DNA of 64,000 nucleotides. It comes from Escherichia coli. GTDB taxonomy: Bacteria; Pseudomonadota; Gammaproteobacteria; Enterobacterales; Enterobacteriaceae. This document shows positions 42,208 to 48,392 of the stretch, piece by piece. Position numbers and translations under genes: made by a program. Numbering within the stretch: the stretch's first letter is position 1; each line of letters begins with the position of its first letter. The stretch is taken from NCBI RefSeq assembly GCF_003334765.1, contig NZ_QOWT01000002.1; one strand, written 5' to 3'. The notes beneath the pieces were generated by a model that saw nothing but the letters and a program-made list of their open reading frames with translations, made no database searches and was not told where the DNA came from.

Positions 42208-42903
42208 TTAATAAAGCAGTGAACCAAGCAGACCGATACCAGCACCGATACCAGCACCCCACGGAGTTGATGAACCAATTAATTTCGCAAGTCCAGCCCC
42301 AGCAATAGCACCAGACGCACCTCCGCCAATAGCAGATTGCATTGCTGATGGTCTGTTGGCATTTGCCGCTGCAAGAGCCGCACTTTGCTGCGAAATCTGA
42401 CTCATGTTGTTGGCATATGTCTGCCCGGCGTTTGCCTGACCTTGCAGTGCGCCAAGACCAATATTTGCCAGATTCTGGTAGTTGTTCATCTGACCAGATA
42501 GCCATTGCTGACCAAGCGTTGGTGCGATTGTTGCTAACTGATTACCGGTTGCAGTGGAACCCAATCCACCTGTTGCTTCCGCTGCCGCCAGACTCTGATA
42601 GCGAGCCTGACCAGCAAGATCTTTGTACTGCTGAGAGTTGTAATACTGGTTAAGTGCCTGACCTTGCCCTTCCAGAGACGATAAGTTCTCGAGGCTGCCG
42701 ACATACTTATCAGCCAGAGGAGTAAACGGCTTCAGGTTGTTCATGATGGTGTTGAACTGCTGATTTTGCAGGTCTGCGGCATACTTCTGAGCTTCTGCTG
42801 CATACTTTGCGCTTTTATCAGAACTGCCACCTTTCCCGCCTTTTTCAGGGCAATAAGGTTCCTCGCCGCGCAGTTTTCTGCCCAGCTTAAATGCATATAA
42901 CAT
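42208..42903 (-). CDS. P22 gp7-like ejection protein
   Basis: 231 aa from internal Met (MLYAFKLGRK) of a 460-aa ORF; Gly-rich hydrophobic C-terminus. Confidence 0.5.
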   Translation of the reverse strand: MLYAFKLGRKLRGEEPYCPEKGGKGGSSDKSAKYAAEAQKYAADLQNQQFNTIMNNLKPFTPLADKYVGSLENLSSLEGQGQALNQYYNSQQYKDLAGQARYQSLAAAEATGGLGSTATGNQLATIAPTLGQQWLSGQMNNYQNLANIGLGALQGQANAGQTYANNMSQISQQSAALAAANANRPSAMQSAIGGGASGAIAGAGLAKLIGSSTPWGAGIGAGIGLLGSLLY

Positions 42904-43590
42904 GGCTAACGCCGAGATGCCGTATTGCGCATAGCTCATACAATCAATTTCGCCTTCGCAAAGTACAACCGCCCTCACGCCAGCGTCCAGAGCCTGCCAT
43001 CCGAACAGACAAGGTTCGCAATCACCTTCTGCCATAATGACTTTCTTCCCGTCCGGGCGCTCAGTGCTGATTCGCTTGACCTGCAACAACTCACCATCGC
43101 GTTTGTACGGAATCACCAGAGCATCCAGTTCTCGCTCTCCATTCCACACCTTGCCGCTGACAACCTCGTAGCGCTTTACGATTTCTGGCGATATGCCACG
43201 CGATTGCAGGTACTCAAGATGGGATTCTGTTCTGGTAACGTAGCGGGCGATTTTCTTGCGATCAGGTCTGGAGAATTTCTTCTCACGTCTGGCATCGAAA
43301 TGGTGATCGTCATCCTTGATACCGAGAAATGCTTTCGCTTCCTGCATAGCCTGATGCAGGTTAATTCCACGACATGCCATCCACAAATCAAGCATGTCAC
43401 CGCCGTCTCCCTCAGCGAAATCAGCCCATTTTTTCTTGCCGCTAAGGTTGACCTTAAGGCTGTTTCCCTTGTCACCGTTGACGTTACCGGCAACCCACTC
43501 ATGCCCCTCTTTCTTGCCGTTTGGCAACAGGTGCGGAGCCACCCTGTCAACCTGCGCCCAAAGCAGGTCGCTAAGTTCACTTGGCGTCAT
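42904..43590 (-). pseudogene. truncated DNA primase fragment (toprim), reads in frame into gp7-like gene
   Basis: 229 aa ending VVLCEGEIDCMSYAQYGIS (DnaG-like toprim EGxxD...AQYGI), no helicase/C-terminal part. Confidence 0.55.
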
Positions 43591-44731: not shown

Positions 44732-45010
44732 TCAGGCCTCGAAGAATTCGCCGTTCTTCGGGGCTTTTTCTTTTGTCAGCATTCTGGCTACTTGCTTAGC
44801 CAGTTCCGCCAACTCCTCGTCTTCAACACCCCATTCAAGAACAGCAAGAAGCATTCCCATTTTGGGGATGAAGCTGTCTTTCCATCGCGAAATTTGCGAT
44901 TCATTAATCCCTAACGCGTCGGCAACCTTTCGCTGACCACGTACAGCAATTCGATTCAGGATGTTGCTTGTAATTGCATTCGCTTTCTTGCGAGTACTTG
45001 TAAGTTGCAT
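44732..45010 (-). CDS. cII: CII-like transcriptional activator
   Basis: 92 aa; [25 protein letters not shown] closely parallels lambda CII. Confidence 0.85.
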
Positions 45011-45068
45011 ATGTAAGTATTTCCTTAACTAATAAGAAGTTATGCGCATCAACTTATGCGCGTTGTAT

Positions 45069-45112
45069 TCCCGCATTTCGGCGGGAATGAGGACCATGAC
45101 TGTTAAAGAGCG
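45069..45112 (-). promoter_or_regulatory. nutR (boxA plus boxB hairpin)
   Basis: minus-strand cgctctttaa (boxA) then tcccgc-cgaaat-gcggga hairpin, between cro and cII. Confidence 0.7.
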
Positions 45113-45118
45113 GTGTTA

Positions 45119-45319
45119 CTATTTGTTTTTCTTGTTGCTTGGGAAAGGACGAACTTCCTCTCCAATCACACTGCCATCAGGCTTTACCGTAACCATAATG
45201 TTACGGCCTGCCAGAATGGCCTTGCTGATAGCGCACTGGATTACACCAAAGTCACTGGCTGCTTTAGCCTGTCCATGGATTTTGGCGTAATCGGCAAGTG
45301 TCATTCGAATCATATGCAC
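45119..45319 (-). CDS. cro: Cro repressor
   Basis: 66 aa; C-terminus [11 protein letters not shown] matches lambda Cro. Confidence 0.85.
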
Positions 45320-45343
45320 TCTCCGTTATTAACCATGAACAAA

Positions 45344-45408
45344 GAATACTACAGGTATTCAAAGCAATCAATACTCAGGGTATTTTTAGTTTAAGTACCT
45401 TAGCTATT
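45344..45408. promoter_or_regulatory. OR1-OR2-OR3 operators with PR/PRM
   Basis: gaatactacaggtattc, caatactcagggtattt, taagtaccttagctatt; centres about 24 bp apart between divergent cro and cI. Confidence 0.7.
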
Positions 45409-45419
45409 AGAATTAAGCT

Positions 45420-46136
45420 ATGGAAAATAAAAAATCACTGACGACAGAACAGCTCGAAGACGCTAAGCGGCTTAAGGCTTTGTATGAGTCAAAAAAGAAA
45501 GAATTGGGAATAACCCAATACTCAATCGCTGATGAACTGGGTATCACCCAAGGAGCGGTAGGGCATTATCTTAATGGCAGAAACGCGCTAAACGTTGAGG
45601 TCGCATCTGGTTTTGCACGTTTGTTGCAAGTCTCAATTGCTGATTTTAGCCAGTCAATTGCTGCCAAGGTTGCAGAACAGGCAGAAAGCCTTAAGAGCGA
45701 TGCCAACGTAAGGTATGCAGGGGAATACAGAGCAGGAAAGAGGTATCCGGTGTTAAGCAGTATCCAGGCTGGCTCGTGGTGTGAAGCATGCGAACCATAC
45801 ACCATTAAAGACATAGATGTTTGGCTTGAGTCTGACGCGCATATTCAAGGTAATGCGTTCTGGCTTAAAGTGGAAGGTGATTCAATGACGGCACCGGTTG
45901 GGTTAAGCATTCCAGAGGGAACATTCGTTCTTTTCGATACCGGAAGGGAGGCGATCAACGGCAGCTTGGTCATAGCAAAACTTTCTGACTCTAACGAAGC
46001 AACATTCAAGAAGCTGATAATCGACGGCGGAAATAAATACCTCAAGGGACTTAACCCTGCATGGCCTCTCGTGCCAATCAATGGAAACTGCAAGATTATA
46101 GGCGTTGCAATTGAGACAAAACTAAGGCTGGTTTGA
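45420..46136 (+). CDS. cI: CI-like repressor (HTH plus S24 autopeptidase)
   Basis: 238 aa; N-terminal LTTEQLEDAKRLKALYESKKKELG; C-terminal GDSM...FKKL Ser/Lys dyad; Ala-Gly site. Confidence 0.9.
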   Translation: MENKKSLTTEQLEDAKRLKALYESKKKELGITQYSIADELGITQGAVGHYLNGRNALNVEVASGFARLLQVSIADFSQSIAAKVAEQAESLKSDANVRYAGEYRAGKRYPVLSSIQAGSWCEACEPYTIKDIDVWLESDAHIQGNAFWLKVEGDSMTAPVGLSIPEGTFVLFDTGREAINGSLVIAKLSDSNEATFKKLIIDGGNKYLKGLNPAWPLVPINGNCKIIGVAIETKLRLV

Positions 46137-46155
46137 TCACGCAAGGGGGGCGCTT

Positions 46156-46524
46156 ATGGTTGGAACCGCTATAGCAAGCTTTTTGGGGATGTTGGCAATC
46201 TCAACAATTTACGGCTTAGCGCATGCTTTTATTGCGAAATCTCTATCAGAAAAAATAAGCCAGGCTTGGGCGCATAGATCAGCTCGTTTCATGATTCTAG
46301 TGGTCATAGCAATACAAGGGATATCTGCATTTATCCTCTATGGATCAAGCTTATACCTGTTGTATCAAGGAGCGACATTTACGCCTTACACCAGTGATTA
46401 CGGAACTCTATACGATGGTAGTGAAGACATCTCTATGGCTTGGATCGTCTTTGGTTTATCTATGGCCGTGTCTGTTGTAGCAGACATCATTAAGGTAATT
46501 CTCGTCTTAACCTTCGCTGACTAA
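46156..46524 (+). CDS. small 4-TM membrane protein in rexB-equivalent position
   Basis: 122 aa, four hydrophobic segments, RBS aagggggg, starts 20 bp after cI stop. Confidence 0.55.
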   Translation: MVGTAIASFLGMLAISTIYGLAHAFIAKSLSEKISQAWAHRSARFMILVVIAIQGISAFILYGSSLYLLYQGATFTPYTSDYGTLYDGSEDISMAWIVFGLSMAVSVVADIIKVILVLTFAD

Positions 46525-46654
46525 CCCATAATCCCGGCAGCAATAGCTATCGGGATCCACTTCACATATCCCGCATAAAAAGCACTGAACAAGCAGATAC
46601 CGAAAAAATAAATATCCTTTGTATTCATTTGTTTATCATTATTTCATCAAAAAT

Positions 46655-46696
46655 AAATACCTTGGGTATTTACACAATAAAATACCTACAGTATTC
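46655..46696. promoter_or_regulatory. OL operators/PL
   Basis: aaataccttgggtattt and aaatacctacagtattc share the OR half-sites. Confidence 0.6.
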
Positions 46697-46743
46697 TTTA
46701 GCCATCAGCAGGACGCTGGAAGCCAAACGGAACAGATTGGCAG

Positions 46744-46784
46744 GCTCTTTAACATTGATGGGATTGTCCCGCCGAAATGCGGGA
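46744..46784 (+). promoter_or_regulatory. nutL (boxA plus boxB hairpin)
   Basis: gctctttaa then tcccgc-cgaaat-gcggga, identical boxB to nutR. Confidence 0.7.
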
Positions 46785-46891
46785 ACCAAAGAGTAGTTGG
46801 CTTTGGGGTGACGTGAAGTGCAGCTGCACGACGGCAACCGGAAGATAAGCACCCGGCGCGTCACCGCCAAAGCCAATCATCGGAGGTCAAC

Positions 46892-47188
46892 ATGATAATC
46901 GTTACTTATCTGGCTGATGATAACACCAGAAATCGCCGCAGAGCACGCAGACAGGCTCAACGTGAACAGGCAATGCAAGAACAGCGACTTGCGCGAAAAA
47001 TTGCGCTAAAGCTCTCTGGTTGCGTCAGAGCAGATAAAGCAGCATCACTCGGAAGCCTTCGCTGCAAGAAGGCAGAAGAAGTCGAGCGTAAACAGAACCG
47101 TATTTACTACCGCAAGCCACGCAGTGAAATGGGTGTGACTTGTGTTGGTCGCCAGAAAATGAAATTAGGCAGCAAACCACTTATTTGA
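46892..47188 (+). CDS. N: N-like antiterminator
   Basis: 98 aa; Arg-rich motif TRNRRRARRQAQREQ; C-terminus GVTCVGRQKMKLGSKPLI parallels lambda N. Confidence 0.85.
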   Translation: MIIVTYLADDNTRNRRRARRQAQREQAMQEQRLARKIALKLSGCVRADKAASLGSLRCKKAEEVERKQNRIYYRKPRSEMGVTCVGRQKMKLGSKPLI

Positions 47189-47196
47189 GGTGAGAT

Positions 47197-47667
47197 ATGA
47201 CAAAATCATGGAGCGTACCTTTTCCTGAATCAGAAACTGAACATGATGGAATGCCTGTTTTCTGGAGATTCCAAGCGACAGTTGAAGAAGATGGAATCAA
47301 AATATTCGCACTTCAATATATAGCTTTTCATCAGACAGAGCATTATGCATGGTTGGTTCCTGCGCATTGGATTGTTGATTTTAAACCAGCACCAAATCAG
47401 TGGTTACAGGAATGGAAACAAAAGAGAAATAGATATGCAATTAAGAAAGTAGCAAAAAATGCAGAAAGATCTTTTGCATTCCCAACGAAGAAACTTGCCA
47501 TTGAAAGTTTATTGCGCCGGAAGAAATACCATTTAATGAGAATAAAACAAGATTTGGCTGTTGTATCAACTCTTGTTGATGGGATGAAAAATATTGATAC
47601 ATCAACACCAGATATTGAATATAACTTTGGACACAACCAAGAAACAGAAAATTGGGTATTTTATTAG
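47197..47667 (+). CDS. hypothetical protein (moron after N)
   Basis: 156 aa soluble, AT-rich, good RBS. Confidence 0.5.
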   Translation: MTKSWSVPFPESETEHDGMPVFWRFQATVEEDGIKIFALQYIAFHQTEHYAWLVPAHWIVDFKPAPNQWLQEWKQKRNRYAIKKVAKNAERSFAFPTKKLAIESLLRRKKYHLMRIKQDLAVVSTLVDGMKNIDTSTPDIEYNFGHNQETENWVFY

Positions 47668-47864: not shown

Positions 47865-48392
47865 TTGATAGGATATAAAATGGCATTTATAAAGATTCTT
47901 GAATTAATTTCCCTAAGTGAGATTAATAATGTTGTCAAATATAACCCTATTTCTGGTGAGTTCACATGGCTAAAATCTTATGGAGCAAGAAAGATAGGTG
48001 GAACTGCCGGAACAATAACAACAAGCGGCTACTTAAGGATTTTCATTAACGGAAGACACTATGCTGCACATAGACTTGCATGGATTATCACTTTCGGTGT
48101 TGAGCCTGAAGGTATTATCGACCATATAAATGGCATAAAGACAGATAACAGAATTTGCAATCTGAGGCTTGCAACTTACTCACAGAATTCAATGAATAGT
48201 AAAATAAATACCCTCAACAAATCAGGTTGCAAAGGAGTCACATGGAAGAAGGAAAGTAGAAAGTGGGCTGCCTATGGGAAATTAAACGGGAAGAAAAAAC
48301 ATCTAGGGTACTTTAATGAATTAGAAGATGCCAAAAAAGCTTACTGCGACTTTGCCAGAAAGCATCACGGCGAATTCTACAGGAGCAAATAA
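47865..48392 (+). CDS. HNH endonuclease with AP2-like DNA-binding domain
   Basis: 175 aa; IDHINGIKTDNRICNLRLAT HNH motif; GVTWKK...YGK..GKKKHLGYF AP2-like. Confidence 0.75.
   Translation: MIGYKMAFIKILELISLSEINNVVKYNPISGEFTWLKSYGARKIGGTAGTITTSGYLRIFINGRHYAAHRLAWIITFGVEPEGIIDHINGIKTDNRICNLRLATYSQNSMNSKINTLNKSGCKGVTWKKESRKWAAYGKLNGKKKHLGYFNELEDAKKAYCDFARKHHGEFYRSK

What the first reader, a model, noticed from the sequence alone, without database searches (positions are those of the whole stretch)
46156..46524. Small 4-TM membrane protein co-transcribed with cI (rexB-equivalent position)
A 122-aa protein with four hydrophobic helices starts 20 bp after the cI stop with a strong RBS. This is where lambda carries rexA/rexB. 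A lone membrane protein made from the repressor transcript is a classic layout for prophage-encoded exclusion or abortive-infection functions.
Basis: inference. Interest (0 to 1): 0.6.

Follow-up and report, generated by a model that had tools for sequence, protein, structure and literature searches.

The report
Orphan membrane gene behind prophage repressor
This is hkaS, a real but never characterised small membrane-protein gene inserted behind the repressor gene of HK620-type prophages, in a slot that related phages fill with anti-phage defence genes, so phage exclusion is a reasonable but untested guess at its role.

Summary
The ORF is real. It runs 46156-46524 (+) and encodes 122 aa. It starts 19 nt after the cI stop, behind a strong Shine-Dalgarno sequence. 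It is the orthologue of phage HK620 gene hkaS (phrog_6534), which is labelled "unknown" or "hypothetical" in every source searched.

The protein has three transmembrane helices, not four. The predicted topology is N-terminus outside, C-terminus inside, with a basic cytoplasmic loop and a conserved acidic, tyrosine-rich periplasmic beta-hairpin.

It has no detectable homology to lambda RexB, 434 Hex, BstA, any Pfam, PADLOC or NCBIfam model, or any other family among 1.84 billion representative proteins. The rexB likeness is positional only.

The gene is under purifying selection (dN/dS about 0.14). It always lies between one cI lineage and its OL operators. It occurs in 146 of 5426 complete E. 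coli genomes, in four phage taxa, in Salmonella, and in a lineage whose protein NCBI assigns to Hafnia.

Close cI relatives have the slot empty or carry other cargo there: BstA, an OLD-like ATPase, PADLOC candidate systems and Hex-like proteins. So hkaS is a discrete accessory insert in a defence hotspot.

My best guess, at about 0.4, is a stand-alone inner-membrane superinfection-exclusion protein. No phenotype is known. Interest is moderate.

The parts
44987..45026 (+). PRE (establishment promoter), reading through cro antisense, cI and hkaS
   Evidence: Coordinates transferred from the HK620 annotation (window = locus + 41999). The region is 98% identical to HK620. Not tested here.
45119..45313 (-). 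cro
   Evidence: phrog_35. 100% aa identity to HK620 cro.
45344..45409 (.). OR1 (45344-45360), OR2 (45369-45385), OR3 (45393-45409)
   Evidence: Matches to AAATACCNNNGGTATTT with at most 3 mismatches. Same positions as the HK620 annotation. The same -76/-51/-27 pattern occurs upstream of cI in most related loci.
45385..45413 (+). PRM-like promoter: -35 TTTAGT (45385-45390), 17-nt spacer, -10 TAGAAT (45408-45413). The predicted start is at or near the A of the cI ATG, which would make the cI mRNA leaderless as in lambda.
   Evidence: Read from the sequence. The geometry relative to OR2 resembles lambda PRM. This is inference; it was not detected by the consensus scan.
45420..46136 (+). cI repressor (HTH plus S24 peptidase), 238 aa
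   Evidence: phrog_4 at 3e-49. 100% identical to the mEpX2 and Stx2c-phage cI and 99-100% to HK620 cI. 52-54% identical to 434 cI.
46143..46150 (+). Shine-Dalgarno AAGGGGGG of hkaS. The poly-G run is 6 G here and 4 G in HK620.
46156..46524 (+). hkaS, 122-aa inner-membrane protein. TM1 46156-46236; basic cytoplasmic loop 46237-46287; TM2 46288-46368; acidic Tyr-rich periplasmic beta-hairpin loop 46369-46431; TM3 46432-46518.
46531..46556 (+). Hairpin 7 nt after the hkaS stop. It is kept in all three lineages, with a different sequence in Salmonella. It lacks a T-run. Probably the end or a stabiliser of the immunity transcript.
   Evidence: Cargo-less relatives have a canonical terminator at the equivalent place directly after cI.
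46586..46635 (+). AU-rich hairpin overlapping the tIMM terminator annotated in HK620 (window 46604-46634)
46610..46696 (.). OL operators: OL3-like 46610-46626, OL2 46655-46671 (perfect palindrome), OL1 46680-46696
46669..46697 (+). PL promoter (TTTACA-17-TATTCT), pointing away from hkaS towards N
46892..47188 (+). N antiterminator. It is the first gene outside the immunity module and is mosaic: 20-69% identity across the loci that share hkaS.

Best explanation
hkaS encodes an accessory inner-membrane protein carried by the HK620-type immunity region.

Shown here: it is a discrete insert of about 400 bp between the cI stop codon and the end of the immunity transcript. It has its own strong ribosome-binding site and no promoter-like or terminator-like site separating it from cI. 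It is conserved under purifying selection. It encodes a 3-TM protein that is almost wholly buried in the membrane.

Inferred: it is made in lysogens from the cI-activated PRM transcript, and from PRE during establishment. It is not made from PL or PR. It inserts N-out/C-in. Its only exposed conserved parts are a 17-residue basic cytoplasmic loop and an invariant Tyr/Asp-rich periplasmic beta-hairpin.

Most likely function (inference from position, architecture and precedent): it acts alone at the inner membrane to protect the lysogen from superinfecting phages. The most probable mode is interference with genome entry across the inner membrane, as with P22 SieA, HK97 gp15 or T4 Imm. A sensor-dependent abortive-infection channel seems less likely. 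It is not needed for repressor function.
For: Layout: 19-nt gap to cI, a Shine-Dalgarno sequence, no terminator-like or promoter-like site on the + strand between cI and the hkaS stop, and a conserved hairpin followed by OL.

Linkage: every hkaS copy lies directly after this cI. This holds for 147/147 places in 146 E. coli genomes, 16 phage records, 35/35 IMG/VR loci, and the Salmonella, Hafnia-named and two further lineages.

Accessory nature: relatives with cI 87-89% identical (L057, L059), Serratia phage OS31 and 10 other loci have an empty slot with a canonical terminator after cI.

Hotspot: in cI relatives (69-78% identical) the same cI-to-OL slot holds 0-2.1 kb of unrelated cargo. This includes BstA (1e-115), an OLD/PtuA-like ATPase (HEC-04, 5e-51), PDC-M63A/B, PDC-M24A/B and Hex-like proteins. 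The literature places rexAB, stk, hex and bstA in this slot and shows cI-hex and cI-bstA co-transcription.

Selection: dN/dS is 0.14 against 0.03 for cI. The loops are invariant within E. coli.

Architecture: 3 TM, with the positive-inside rule kept in all orthologues (loop 1 carries +3 to +5, loop 2 carries 0 to +1 basic and 2-4 acidic residues) and a confident AlphaFold2 model.

No partner: the flanking genes cII and N are mosaic at 20-69% identity, so no RexA-like sensor travels with it. The module occurs in four phage taxa with different virions.

Precedent for a lone inner-membrane protein that blocks entry: P22 SieA.
Against: There is no experimental phenotype, and I found no paper on the gene.

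There is no homology to any known exclusion or defence protein, so the function rests on guilt by location.

The perfect linkage to cI needs no functional explanation. Any gene between cI and OL is trapped inside the immunity module.

Within E. coli the variation is conservative and confined to the TM segments. The loops show no sign of diversifying selection, which an arms-race protein might be expected to show.

Hex, in the sister 434 module, also affects repressor stability, so the slot is not used only for defence.

Transcription from PRM is inferred, not measured.
Confidence: 0.4

Rival explanations
1. Abortive-infection effector that works like RexB. HkaS sits silent in the membrane and, on infection, opens or oligomerises to depolarise the cell and abort phage growth.
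For: It occupies the rexAB slot. It is a small polytopic membrane protein with invariant polar residues inside its TM helices (Q54, D110, K113) that could line a pore or drive oligomerisation. BstA, a validated abortive-infection protein, occupies the same slot in a sister module. RexB-type effectors are membrane proteins.
Against: No sensor partner exists. Nothing is encoded between cI and hkaS, and the flanks are mosaic. The cytoplasmic exposure is only about 17 residues. There is no homology to RexB and it has 3 TM helices rather than 4. A constitutive latent toxin would have to spare the phage's own induction.
Confidence: 0.15
2. Modulator of lysogen stability or induction, working like 434 Hex. 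HkaS changes how readily this particular cI is inactivated, or couples envelope state to induction.
For: Hex occupies the same slot in the related 434 module (cI 52-54% identical) and lowers RecA-dependent spontaneous induction 30-fold. hkaS is found only with one cI lineage. There is a weak structural resemblance of TM2-hairpin-TM3 to DUF3955, a 2-TM domain often fused to XRE-type HTH regulators.
Against: The protein is not homologous to Hex. It is almost entirely membrane-embedded and has no cytoplasmic domain that could reach cI or RecA. Relatives with cI 87-89% identical do without it. The DUF3955 matches have E-values of 0.1-1 and there is no Pfam hit even at E<=10. Linkage is explained by entrapment between cI and OL.
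Confidence: 0.1
3. Lysogenic-conversion factor unrelated to phages, for example immunity to a membrane-targeting bacteriocin or secreted toxin, or an envelope-stress or transport function that benefits the host.
For: The size and 3-TM N-out/C-in architecture resemble E1-type pore-forming-colicin immunity proteins (from my own knowledge, not tested). The gene is retained, with the immunity region, in a defective prophage in this window. The conserved periplasmic aromatic/acidic loop could bind a ligand.
Against: No similarity to any immunity, transporter or stress family by sequence or fold. No cognate toxin gene lies nearby. The identified alternative occupants of the slot are phage-defence genes.
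Confidence: 0.2
4. Functionless hitchhiker: an ORF trapped between cI and OL that persists only through linkage.
For: Any sequence between cI and OL must travel with the immunity specificity. The family is tiny, with one 50%-identity cluster among 1.84 billion representatives.
Against: dN/dS is 0.14 with dS 0.71 or saturated. Length (122 aa), start codon and RBS are conserved across lineages down to 55% identity. There are 57 invariant columns. The ORF is intact in 35/35 IMG/VR loci that carry this cI.
Confidence: 0.05

Closest known systems
Lambda RexB (with RexA), an abortive-infection system in the cI-OL slot
   Same: Same slot and orientation after cI, before OL/PL. Both are small polytopic inner-membrane proteins presumed to be made from the repressor transcript.
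   Different: No sequence relationship (hhalign probability 0.3%). HkaS has 3 TM helices and 122 aa; RexB has 144 aa and 4 TM helices by the literature. No RexA-like partner accompanies hkaS. No internal promoter-like site analogous to lambda's rexB-specific promoter (from my own knowledge) was found.
Phage 434 Hex (heterologous exclusion and repressor protection)
   Same: It is the positional equivalent in the sister immunity module (cI 52-54% identical). It is co-transcribed with cI from PRM.
   Different: Hex has a signal-peptide-like N-terminus and is otherwise soluble. It is 134 aa and overlaps the cI stop. It is not homologous (BLASTP E=4).
BstA (prophage BTP1 abortive-infection protein downstream of cI)
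   Same: Same slot; transcribed with cI. A BstA homologue fills the slot in a module whose cI is 69% identical to this one (L089).
   Different: BstA is a cytoplasmic DNA-binding protein of about 300 aa. There is no similarity to HkaS.
Stand-alone inner-membrane entry-exclusion proteins (P22 SieA, HK97 gp15, T4 Imm, lactococcal Sie2009)
   Same: They are small prophage- or phage-encoded inner-membrane proteins that act alone at the membrane. This is the working model adopted here (SieA; the others from my own knowledge).
   Different: No homology: the only PHROG hit is phrog_6534. These proteins are encoded elsewhere in their genomes. An exclusion phenotype has not been shown for HkaS.
DUF3955 (PF13127) small 2-TM proteins and XRE-HTH fusions
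   Same: TM2, the beta-hairpin and TM3 superpose on DUF3955 models at 2-3 A rmsd over about 65 residues.
   Different: Foldseek E-values are 0.1-1. There is no Pfam hit even at E<=10. DUF3955 has no known function. HkaS has an extra TM1.

Membership tests
HkaS / phrog_6534 | Full-length match to the family profile | tested here: met
   E 2.1e-78 over residues 1-122 of 122. 96% identical to HK620 HkaS.
HkaS / phrog_6534 | Location directly downstream of the HK620-type cI, upstream of OL | tested here: met
Lambda RexB | Sequence or profile homology to RexB | tested here: not met
   hhalign probability 0.3%. No Pfam or PADLOC hit.
Lambda RexB | Adjacent RexA-like sensor gene | tested here: not met
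   Only 19 nt separate cI and hkaS. The flanking genes are mosaic.
Lambda RexB | Four transmembrane helices | tested here: not met
   Three TM helices by hydropathy and AlphaFold2.
Lambda RexB | Position between cI and OL, same strand as cI | tested here: met
Lambda RexB | Exclusion of T4 rII or membrane depolarisation on infection | not testable with these tools
   Needs plating and membrane-potential assays.
434 Hex | Sequence homology | tested here: not met
   BLASTP E=4. Hex has a signal-peptide-like N-terminus and no further TM helices.
BstA | Match to the BstA profile | tested here: not met
   PADLOC gave no hit at E<=1. The same library finds BstA in L089 at 1e-115.
Class I holin | Three TM helices, N-out/C-in | tested here: met
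   Hydropathy, charge distribution and AlphaFold2. The topology is predicted, not measured.
Class I holin | Charged cytoplasmic C-terminal tail, location in a lysis cassette, holin profile match | tested here: not met
   The protein ends ...LVLTFAD with no tail. It lies in the immunity region. There are no holin hits in Pfam or PHROGs.
DUF3955 (PF13127) | Match to the Pfam HMM | tested here: not met
   Not among Pfam hits at E<=10. Only a weak fold resemblance.
Prophage accessory (moron) gene of the PRM operon | Discrete insert that is absent from close relatives and flanked by conserved module sequence | tested here: met
   L057 and L059 (cI 87-89% identical) go from the cI stop straight to a terminator and OL. 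The window has hkaS between them.
Prophage accessory (moron) gene of the PRM operon | Transcribed in the lysogen from the repressor promoter | not testable with these tools
   Inferred from the layout. Shown for hex and bstA in other phages.

The most novel reading that the evidence does not exclude
HkaS founds a new, sensor-less family of prophage defence proteins. It would be a 122-aa, 3-TM inner-membrane protein that, alone and from the repressor transcript, blocks superinfecting phages at the membrane through its invariant periplasmic Tyr/Asp hairpin or its buried Q54/D110/K113 cluster. It is present in about 2.7% of complete E. coli genomes. A rarer and more novel variant is that it couples envelope state to the stability of its own cI, as Hex does by other means.
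Probability: 0.4. Interest if true: 0.5.

Novelty: new member of a known kind. Interest (0 to 1): 0.38.

Why it matters
The gene has been annotated as 'unknown' since the HK620 genome was published in 2001. It sits in about 2.7% of complete E. coli genomes, including Stx-converting phages and O111:H8 strains. Its location is one of the most productive known sites for prophage-encoded defence genes, such as rexAB, stk, hex and bstA.

If it does exclude phages, it would add a minimal single-gene membrane-level system with no homology to known ones. That bears on phage-therapy host range and on competition between prophages.

The survey also gives a simple way to harvest further candidates. The operator motif of this cI clade brackets a slot of 0-2.1 kb whose cargo is mostly uncharacterised.

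Tried and rejected
- RexB homology: rejected (hhalign probability 0.3%).
- Hex homology: rejected.
- Four TM helices: rejected in favour of three.
- Known families: Pfam gave only noise (best hit Cation_ATPase_C, E 0.002). PADLOC and NCBIfam gave nothing.
- Remote homologues: a profile search of 1.84 billion representative proteins returned only the family itself, a 44-aa fragment, and a 5949-aa protein. That last score is the sum of nine near-identical 27-residue repeats of about 7 bits each, so it is an artefact.
- Fold searches: BFVD and PDB gave nothing significant. AFDB50 gave only the protein's own orthologue plus weak DUF3955-like 2-TM hairpins. DUF3955 has no known function.
- Convergent 35-aa hydrophobic ORF on the minus strand (46521-46628): rejected as a gene. 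It stops at codon 11-13 in the Salmonella and Hafnia-named lineages, and its conserved start overlaps an operator-like site.
- Known RNA families in 45000-47300: none at E<=1. I did not compare the svsR/co293 sequence reported at the 3' end of the NC-SV prophage cI with this region directly.
- Literature: no mention of hkaS or its accession numbers. Three related accessions were not found in the DefensePredictor supplements.
- L094 PDC-S33 was first counted as slot cargo, then excluded because it lies beyond OL.
- L057 and L059 downstream ORFs: the L059 ORF proved to be N with a spurious upstream extension. The related 95-aa L057 ORF has no PHROG or PADLOC match and overlaps OL, so I treat it as spurious too. 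Both slots are therefore empty.
- Not attempted: homo-oligomer modelling with linkers, because the tool returns no coordinates or inter-chain confidence.

Full report
**1. What is at the coordinates**

The ORF at 46156..46524 (+) encodes 122 aa. It follows a 238-aa HTH + S24-peptidase repressor at 45420..46136 (phrog_4, 3e-49). The gap is 19 nt, TCACGCAAGGGGGGCGCTT. It contains the Shine-Dalgarno sequence AAGGGGGG at 46143-46150, 5 nt before the ATG.

The neighbourhood is a lambdoid immunity region:
- cII: 44732-45010 (-)
- cro: 45119-45313 (-)
- three operators: 45344-45409
- cI, then the ORF
- three operators: 46610-46696
- a PL-like promoter: 46669-46697
- N: 46892-47188

Megablast shows the 2.2-kb region is 98-99% identical to the immunity regions of phage HK620 and 12 other phages. 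In HK620 the ORF is annotated 'hkaS: unknown'.

**2. It is a real gene**

- It matches phrog_6534 ('unknown function') end to end (E 2e-78).
- Orthologues keep exactly 122 codons, the start codon and an RBS down to 55% identity.
- Against the lineage carrying the protein that NCBI assigns to Hafnia paralvei, dS = 0.71, dN = 0.10 and dN/dS = 0.14. For cI in the same pair, dN/dS is 0.03. Synonymous sites are saturated against the Salmonella lineage.
- The ORF is intact in 35/35 IMG/VR loci that carry this cI.
- It is annotated as a CDS in all 42 listed rows for E. coli genomes.
- Within E. coli, variation is conservative and limited to a few TM positions. Both loops are invariant.

**3. The protein**

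Hydropathy gives three hydrophobic stretches, at residues 1-27, 45-71 and 93-121. AlphaFold2 on the six-sequence alignment gives a confident model (pLDDT 91.5, pTM 0.78). It has helices at 2-29, 31-38 (short), 41-74 and 89-121, and a beta-hairpin at 78-86.

Loop 1 (residues 28-44) carries 3-5 K/R and 0-1 D/E in every orthologue. Loop 2 (residues 72-92) carries 0-1 K/R and 2-4 D/E. By the positive-inside rule the topology is N-out/C-in with three TM helices, not four.

The most conserved parts are:
- the periplasmic end of TM2 plus the hairpin (S65, Y67-F75, Y78, S80, Y82, G83, Y86, G88);
- the cytoplasmic end of TM3 (D110, I111, K113, I115-T119, A121);
- one buried polar residue in TM2 (Q54).

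**4. It belongs to no known family**

- Pfam gives only noise, and PADLOC and NCBIfam give nothing.
- A profile search of 1.84 billion representative proteins finds one 50%-identity cluster (its own), a fragment, and a repeat-summed artefact.
- Foldseek against BFVD and PDB finds nothing. AFDB50 finds its Salmonella orthologue and then weak matches (E 0.1-1) of TM2-hairpin-TM3 to DUF3955. That domain is an uncharacterised 2-TM unit sometimes fused to XRE HTH regulators.
- hhalign against lambda RexB gives probability 0.3%. BLASTP against 434 Hex gives E = 4.

The 'rexB-equivalent' label is therefore correct for position only.

**5. Distribution and linkage**

hkaS is found in 146 of 5426 complete E. 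coli genomes (147 places, all chromosomal). In all of them cI and hkaS are contiguous.

It occurs in 16 phage records from four taxa with different virions:
- Lederbergvirus HK620
- Lambdavirus HK630
- Hendrixvirinae mEpX2
- Sepvirinae phi296 and Stx2c phages

Diverged copies (81%, 59% and 55% identity) occur in the Hafnia-named lineage (metagenome contigs), in Salmonella, and in two unassigned Logan contigs. In all of these hkaS lies 17-20 nt after cI, and where the contig extends far enough the order is cro<- cI-> hkaS-> ... N->.

cro, cI and hkaS travel together. Identity to the window is 81-84% for cro, 86-97% for cI and 59-81% for hkaS. The flanks are mosaic: cII 29-53% and N 20-31% in the same loci.

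This linkage has a simple structural cause. OL must match cI, so anything between cI and OL is locked into the immunity module. It needs no functional coupling. hkaS evolves 4-5 times faster than cI at non-synonymous sites.

**6. hkaS is an accessory insert in a cargo hotspot**

I collected 80 IMG/VR loci with a cI-alignment query. I used the clade's operator motif to mark OR and OL.

The distance from the cI stop to the first OL operator varies as follows:
- 62-155 nt (empty slot) in 12 loci;
- about 450-470 nt in hkaS loci;
- about 530 nt in four loci;
- 0.9-2.15 kb in about 27 loci.

Two empty-slot loci, L057 and L059, have cI 87-89% identical to the window's. There the cI stop is followed directly by a canonical terminator and then OL. 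Serratia phage OS31 (71%) and mEp213 are also empty.

Cargo in the other loci includes:
- BstA (L089, 1e-115);
- an OLD/PtuA/GajA-like ATPase (L097, HEC-04, 5e-51);
- PDC-M63A+B (L063);
- PDC-M24A/B-like pairs (L070, L075);
- Hex-like secreted proteins (434, Sf101, and L061 on the opposite strand);
- a ParA-like ATPase and an HslV-like protein;
- two-gene cassettes ending in a coiled-coil/C-terminal-TM protein (L081, BHUENT3);
- several families of unknown function.

Published work places lambda rexAB, 933W stk, 434 hex and BTP1 bstA in this slot. It shows co-transcription with cI for hex and bstA, and calls the cI-N interval a mosaic hotspot.

**7. Expression logic (inferred)**

Upstream of cI there is a PRM-like promoter: TTTAGT, 17 nt, TAGAAT (45385-45413). 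Its -35 element abuts OR2. Its predicted start coincides with the cI ATG, as in lambda.

No + strand terminator-like or promoter-like site lies between the cI start and the hkaS stop. A hairpin directly after the hkaS stop is present in all three lineages, although its sequence differs in Salmonella. PL and PR point away from hkaS.

hkaS should therefore be made only when cI is made, from PRM in lysogens and from PRE during establishment. It should be translated from a much better initiation site than the leaderless cI. None of this was measured.

**8. Mechanism**

The facts that bear on function are:
- lysogen-specific expression;
- a dispensable insert;
- a slot enriched in defence genes;
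- no co-travelling partner;
- a protein with almost no cytoplasmic surface but an invariant periplasmic hairpin and a buried polar cluster;
- carriage by phages of unrelated virion types.

The reading I favour (about 0.4) is a stand-alone inner-membrane superinfection-exclusion protein that interferes with genome entry. This is how P22 SieA works, and, from my own knowledge, HK97 gp15 and T4 Imm.

The rival readings are:
- a RexB-like abortive-infection effector (0.15). It lacks a sensor and has little cytoplasmic exposure;
- a Hex-like influence on repressor stability (0.1). This has precedent in the sister module but is hard to reconcile with a buried protein, and close cI relatives do without hkaS;
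- a conversion function unrelated to phages (0.2). This cannot be excluded;
- a neutral hitchhiker (0.05). This is disfavoured by the selection data.

**9. Context in this window**

The prophage that carries the gene is defective. ORF 42208-43590 (-) is an in-frame fusion of a primase/helicase N-terminus to a complete gp7-like ejection protein. No complete E. coli genome spans the junction at about 42908. The nin, Q, lysis and head genes are therefore gone. The cro-cI-hkaS module, the ejection proteins and the tailspike remain intact.

**10. Verdict**

It remains untested, and 'rexB-equivalent' must not be read as homology.

The gene is already annotated (hkaS, 2001) but uncharacterised. If it is a defence gene, it would be a new family of a known kind. 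Interest is moderate.

Noticed in passing
window 42208-43590 (-), junction near 42908: In-frame chimeric ORF. Residues 4-227 are a DNA primase/helicase N-terminus and residues 229-457 are a complete P22 gp7-like ejection protein. No complete E. coli genome spans the junction. The P22/HK620-like prophage has lost its nin, Q, lysis and head genes and is defective, yet it keeps an intact immunity module.
   Followed up: partly
window 46521-46628 (-): A 35-aa hydrophobic ORF (MNTKDIYFFGICLFSAFYAGYVKWIPIAIAAGIMG) convergent with hkaS. It has no Shine-Dalgarno sequence. It is truncated at codon 11-13 in the Salmonella and Hafnia-named lineages, so it is probably not a gene.
   Followed up: yes
window 46610-46626: An operator-like site, AAATATCCTTTGTATTC, is conserved in all lineages. 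It lies 45 bp from OL2 and differs from the OL3 annotated in HK620 (window 46631-46647). It may be the true OL3 or a fourth operator.
   Followed up: partly
window 46145-46150; L001, L022-L056: The poly-G run inside the hkaS Shine-Dalgarno sequence varies in length: 4 G in HK620 and 6 G here. As a result the cI-hkaS gap ranges from 17 to 19 nt among otherwise near-identical E. coli copies. Whether this tunes translation is unknown.
   Followed up: no
window 47197-47667 (+): A 156-aa ORF directly after N has only 35% G+C, against 47% for the window. It matches phrog_1636 (unknown function) and looks like another accessory insert in the PL operon.
   Followed up: no
window 47865-48392 (+): A 175-aa ORF with a weak match to a homing-endonuclease model (PADLOC HEase, 4.8e-5) in the early-left operon.
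   Followed up: no
window about 38465-39205 (+): Two small ORFs (phrog_3870, phrog_2651) lie between the ejection-protein gene and the arc/mnt region, where P22 has sieA. RefSeq names one feature under the matching region in related genomes a 'Rap1a/Tai family immunity protein'. NCBIfam gave no hit for either ORF.
   Followed up: partly
L089 3875-4816; L097 4037-5476; L063 3861-5266; L070 3855-5109: In phage contigs whose cI is 69-76% identical to the window's, the same cI-to-OL slot carries BstA, an OLD/PtuA-like ATPase (HEC-04), PDC-M63A/B and PDC-M24A/B-like pairs.
   Followed up: yes
L061 3749-4135 (-): A Hex-like secreted protein (MRLLVAAALALPMVSNASCWTVKDLKG...) occupies the slot but is encoded on the strand opposite to cI, unlike hex in 434 and Sf101.
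   Followed up: no
L014 2170-2886; L081 1409-2130: An uncharacterised two-gene cassette sits in the slot. It consists of a soluble protein of 127-136 aa followed by a protein of 104-109 aa with a Gly-rich stretch, a coiled coil and a C-terminal TM helix. The layout is reminiscent of a sensor plus a membrane effector. The L081 proteins gave no PADLOC hit; the L014 (BHUENT3) proteins were not scanned.
   Followed up: no
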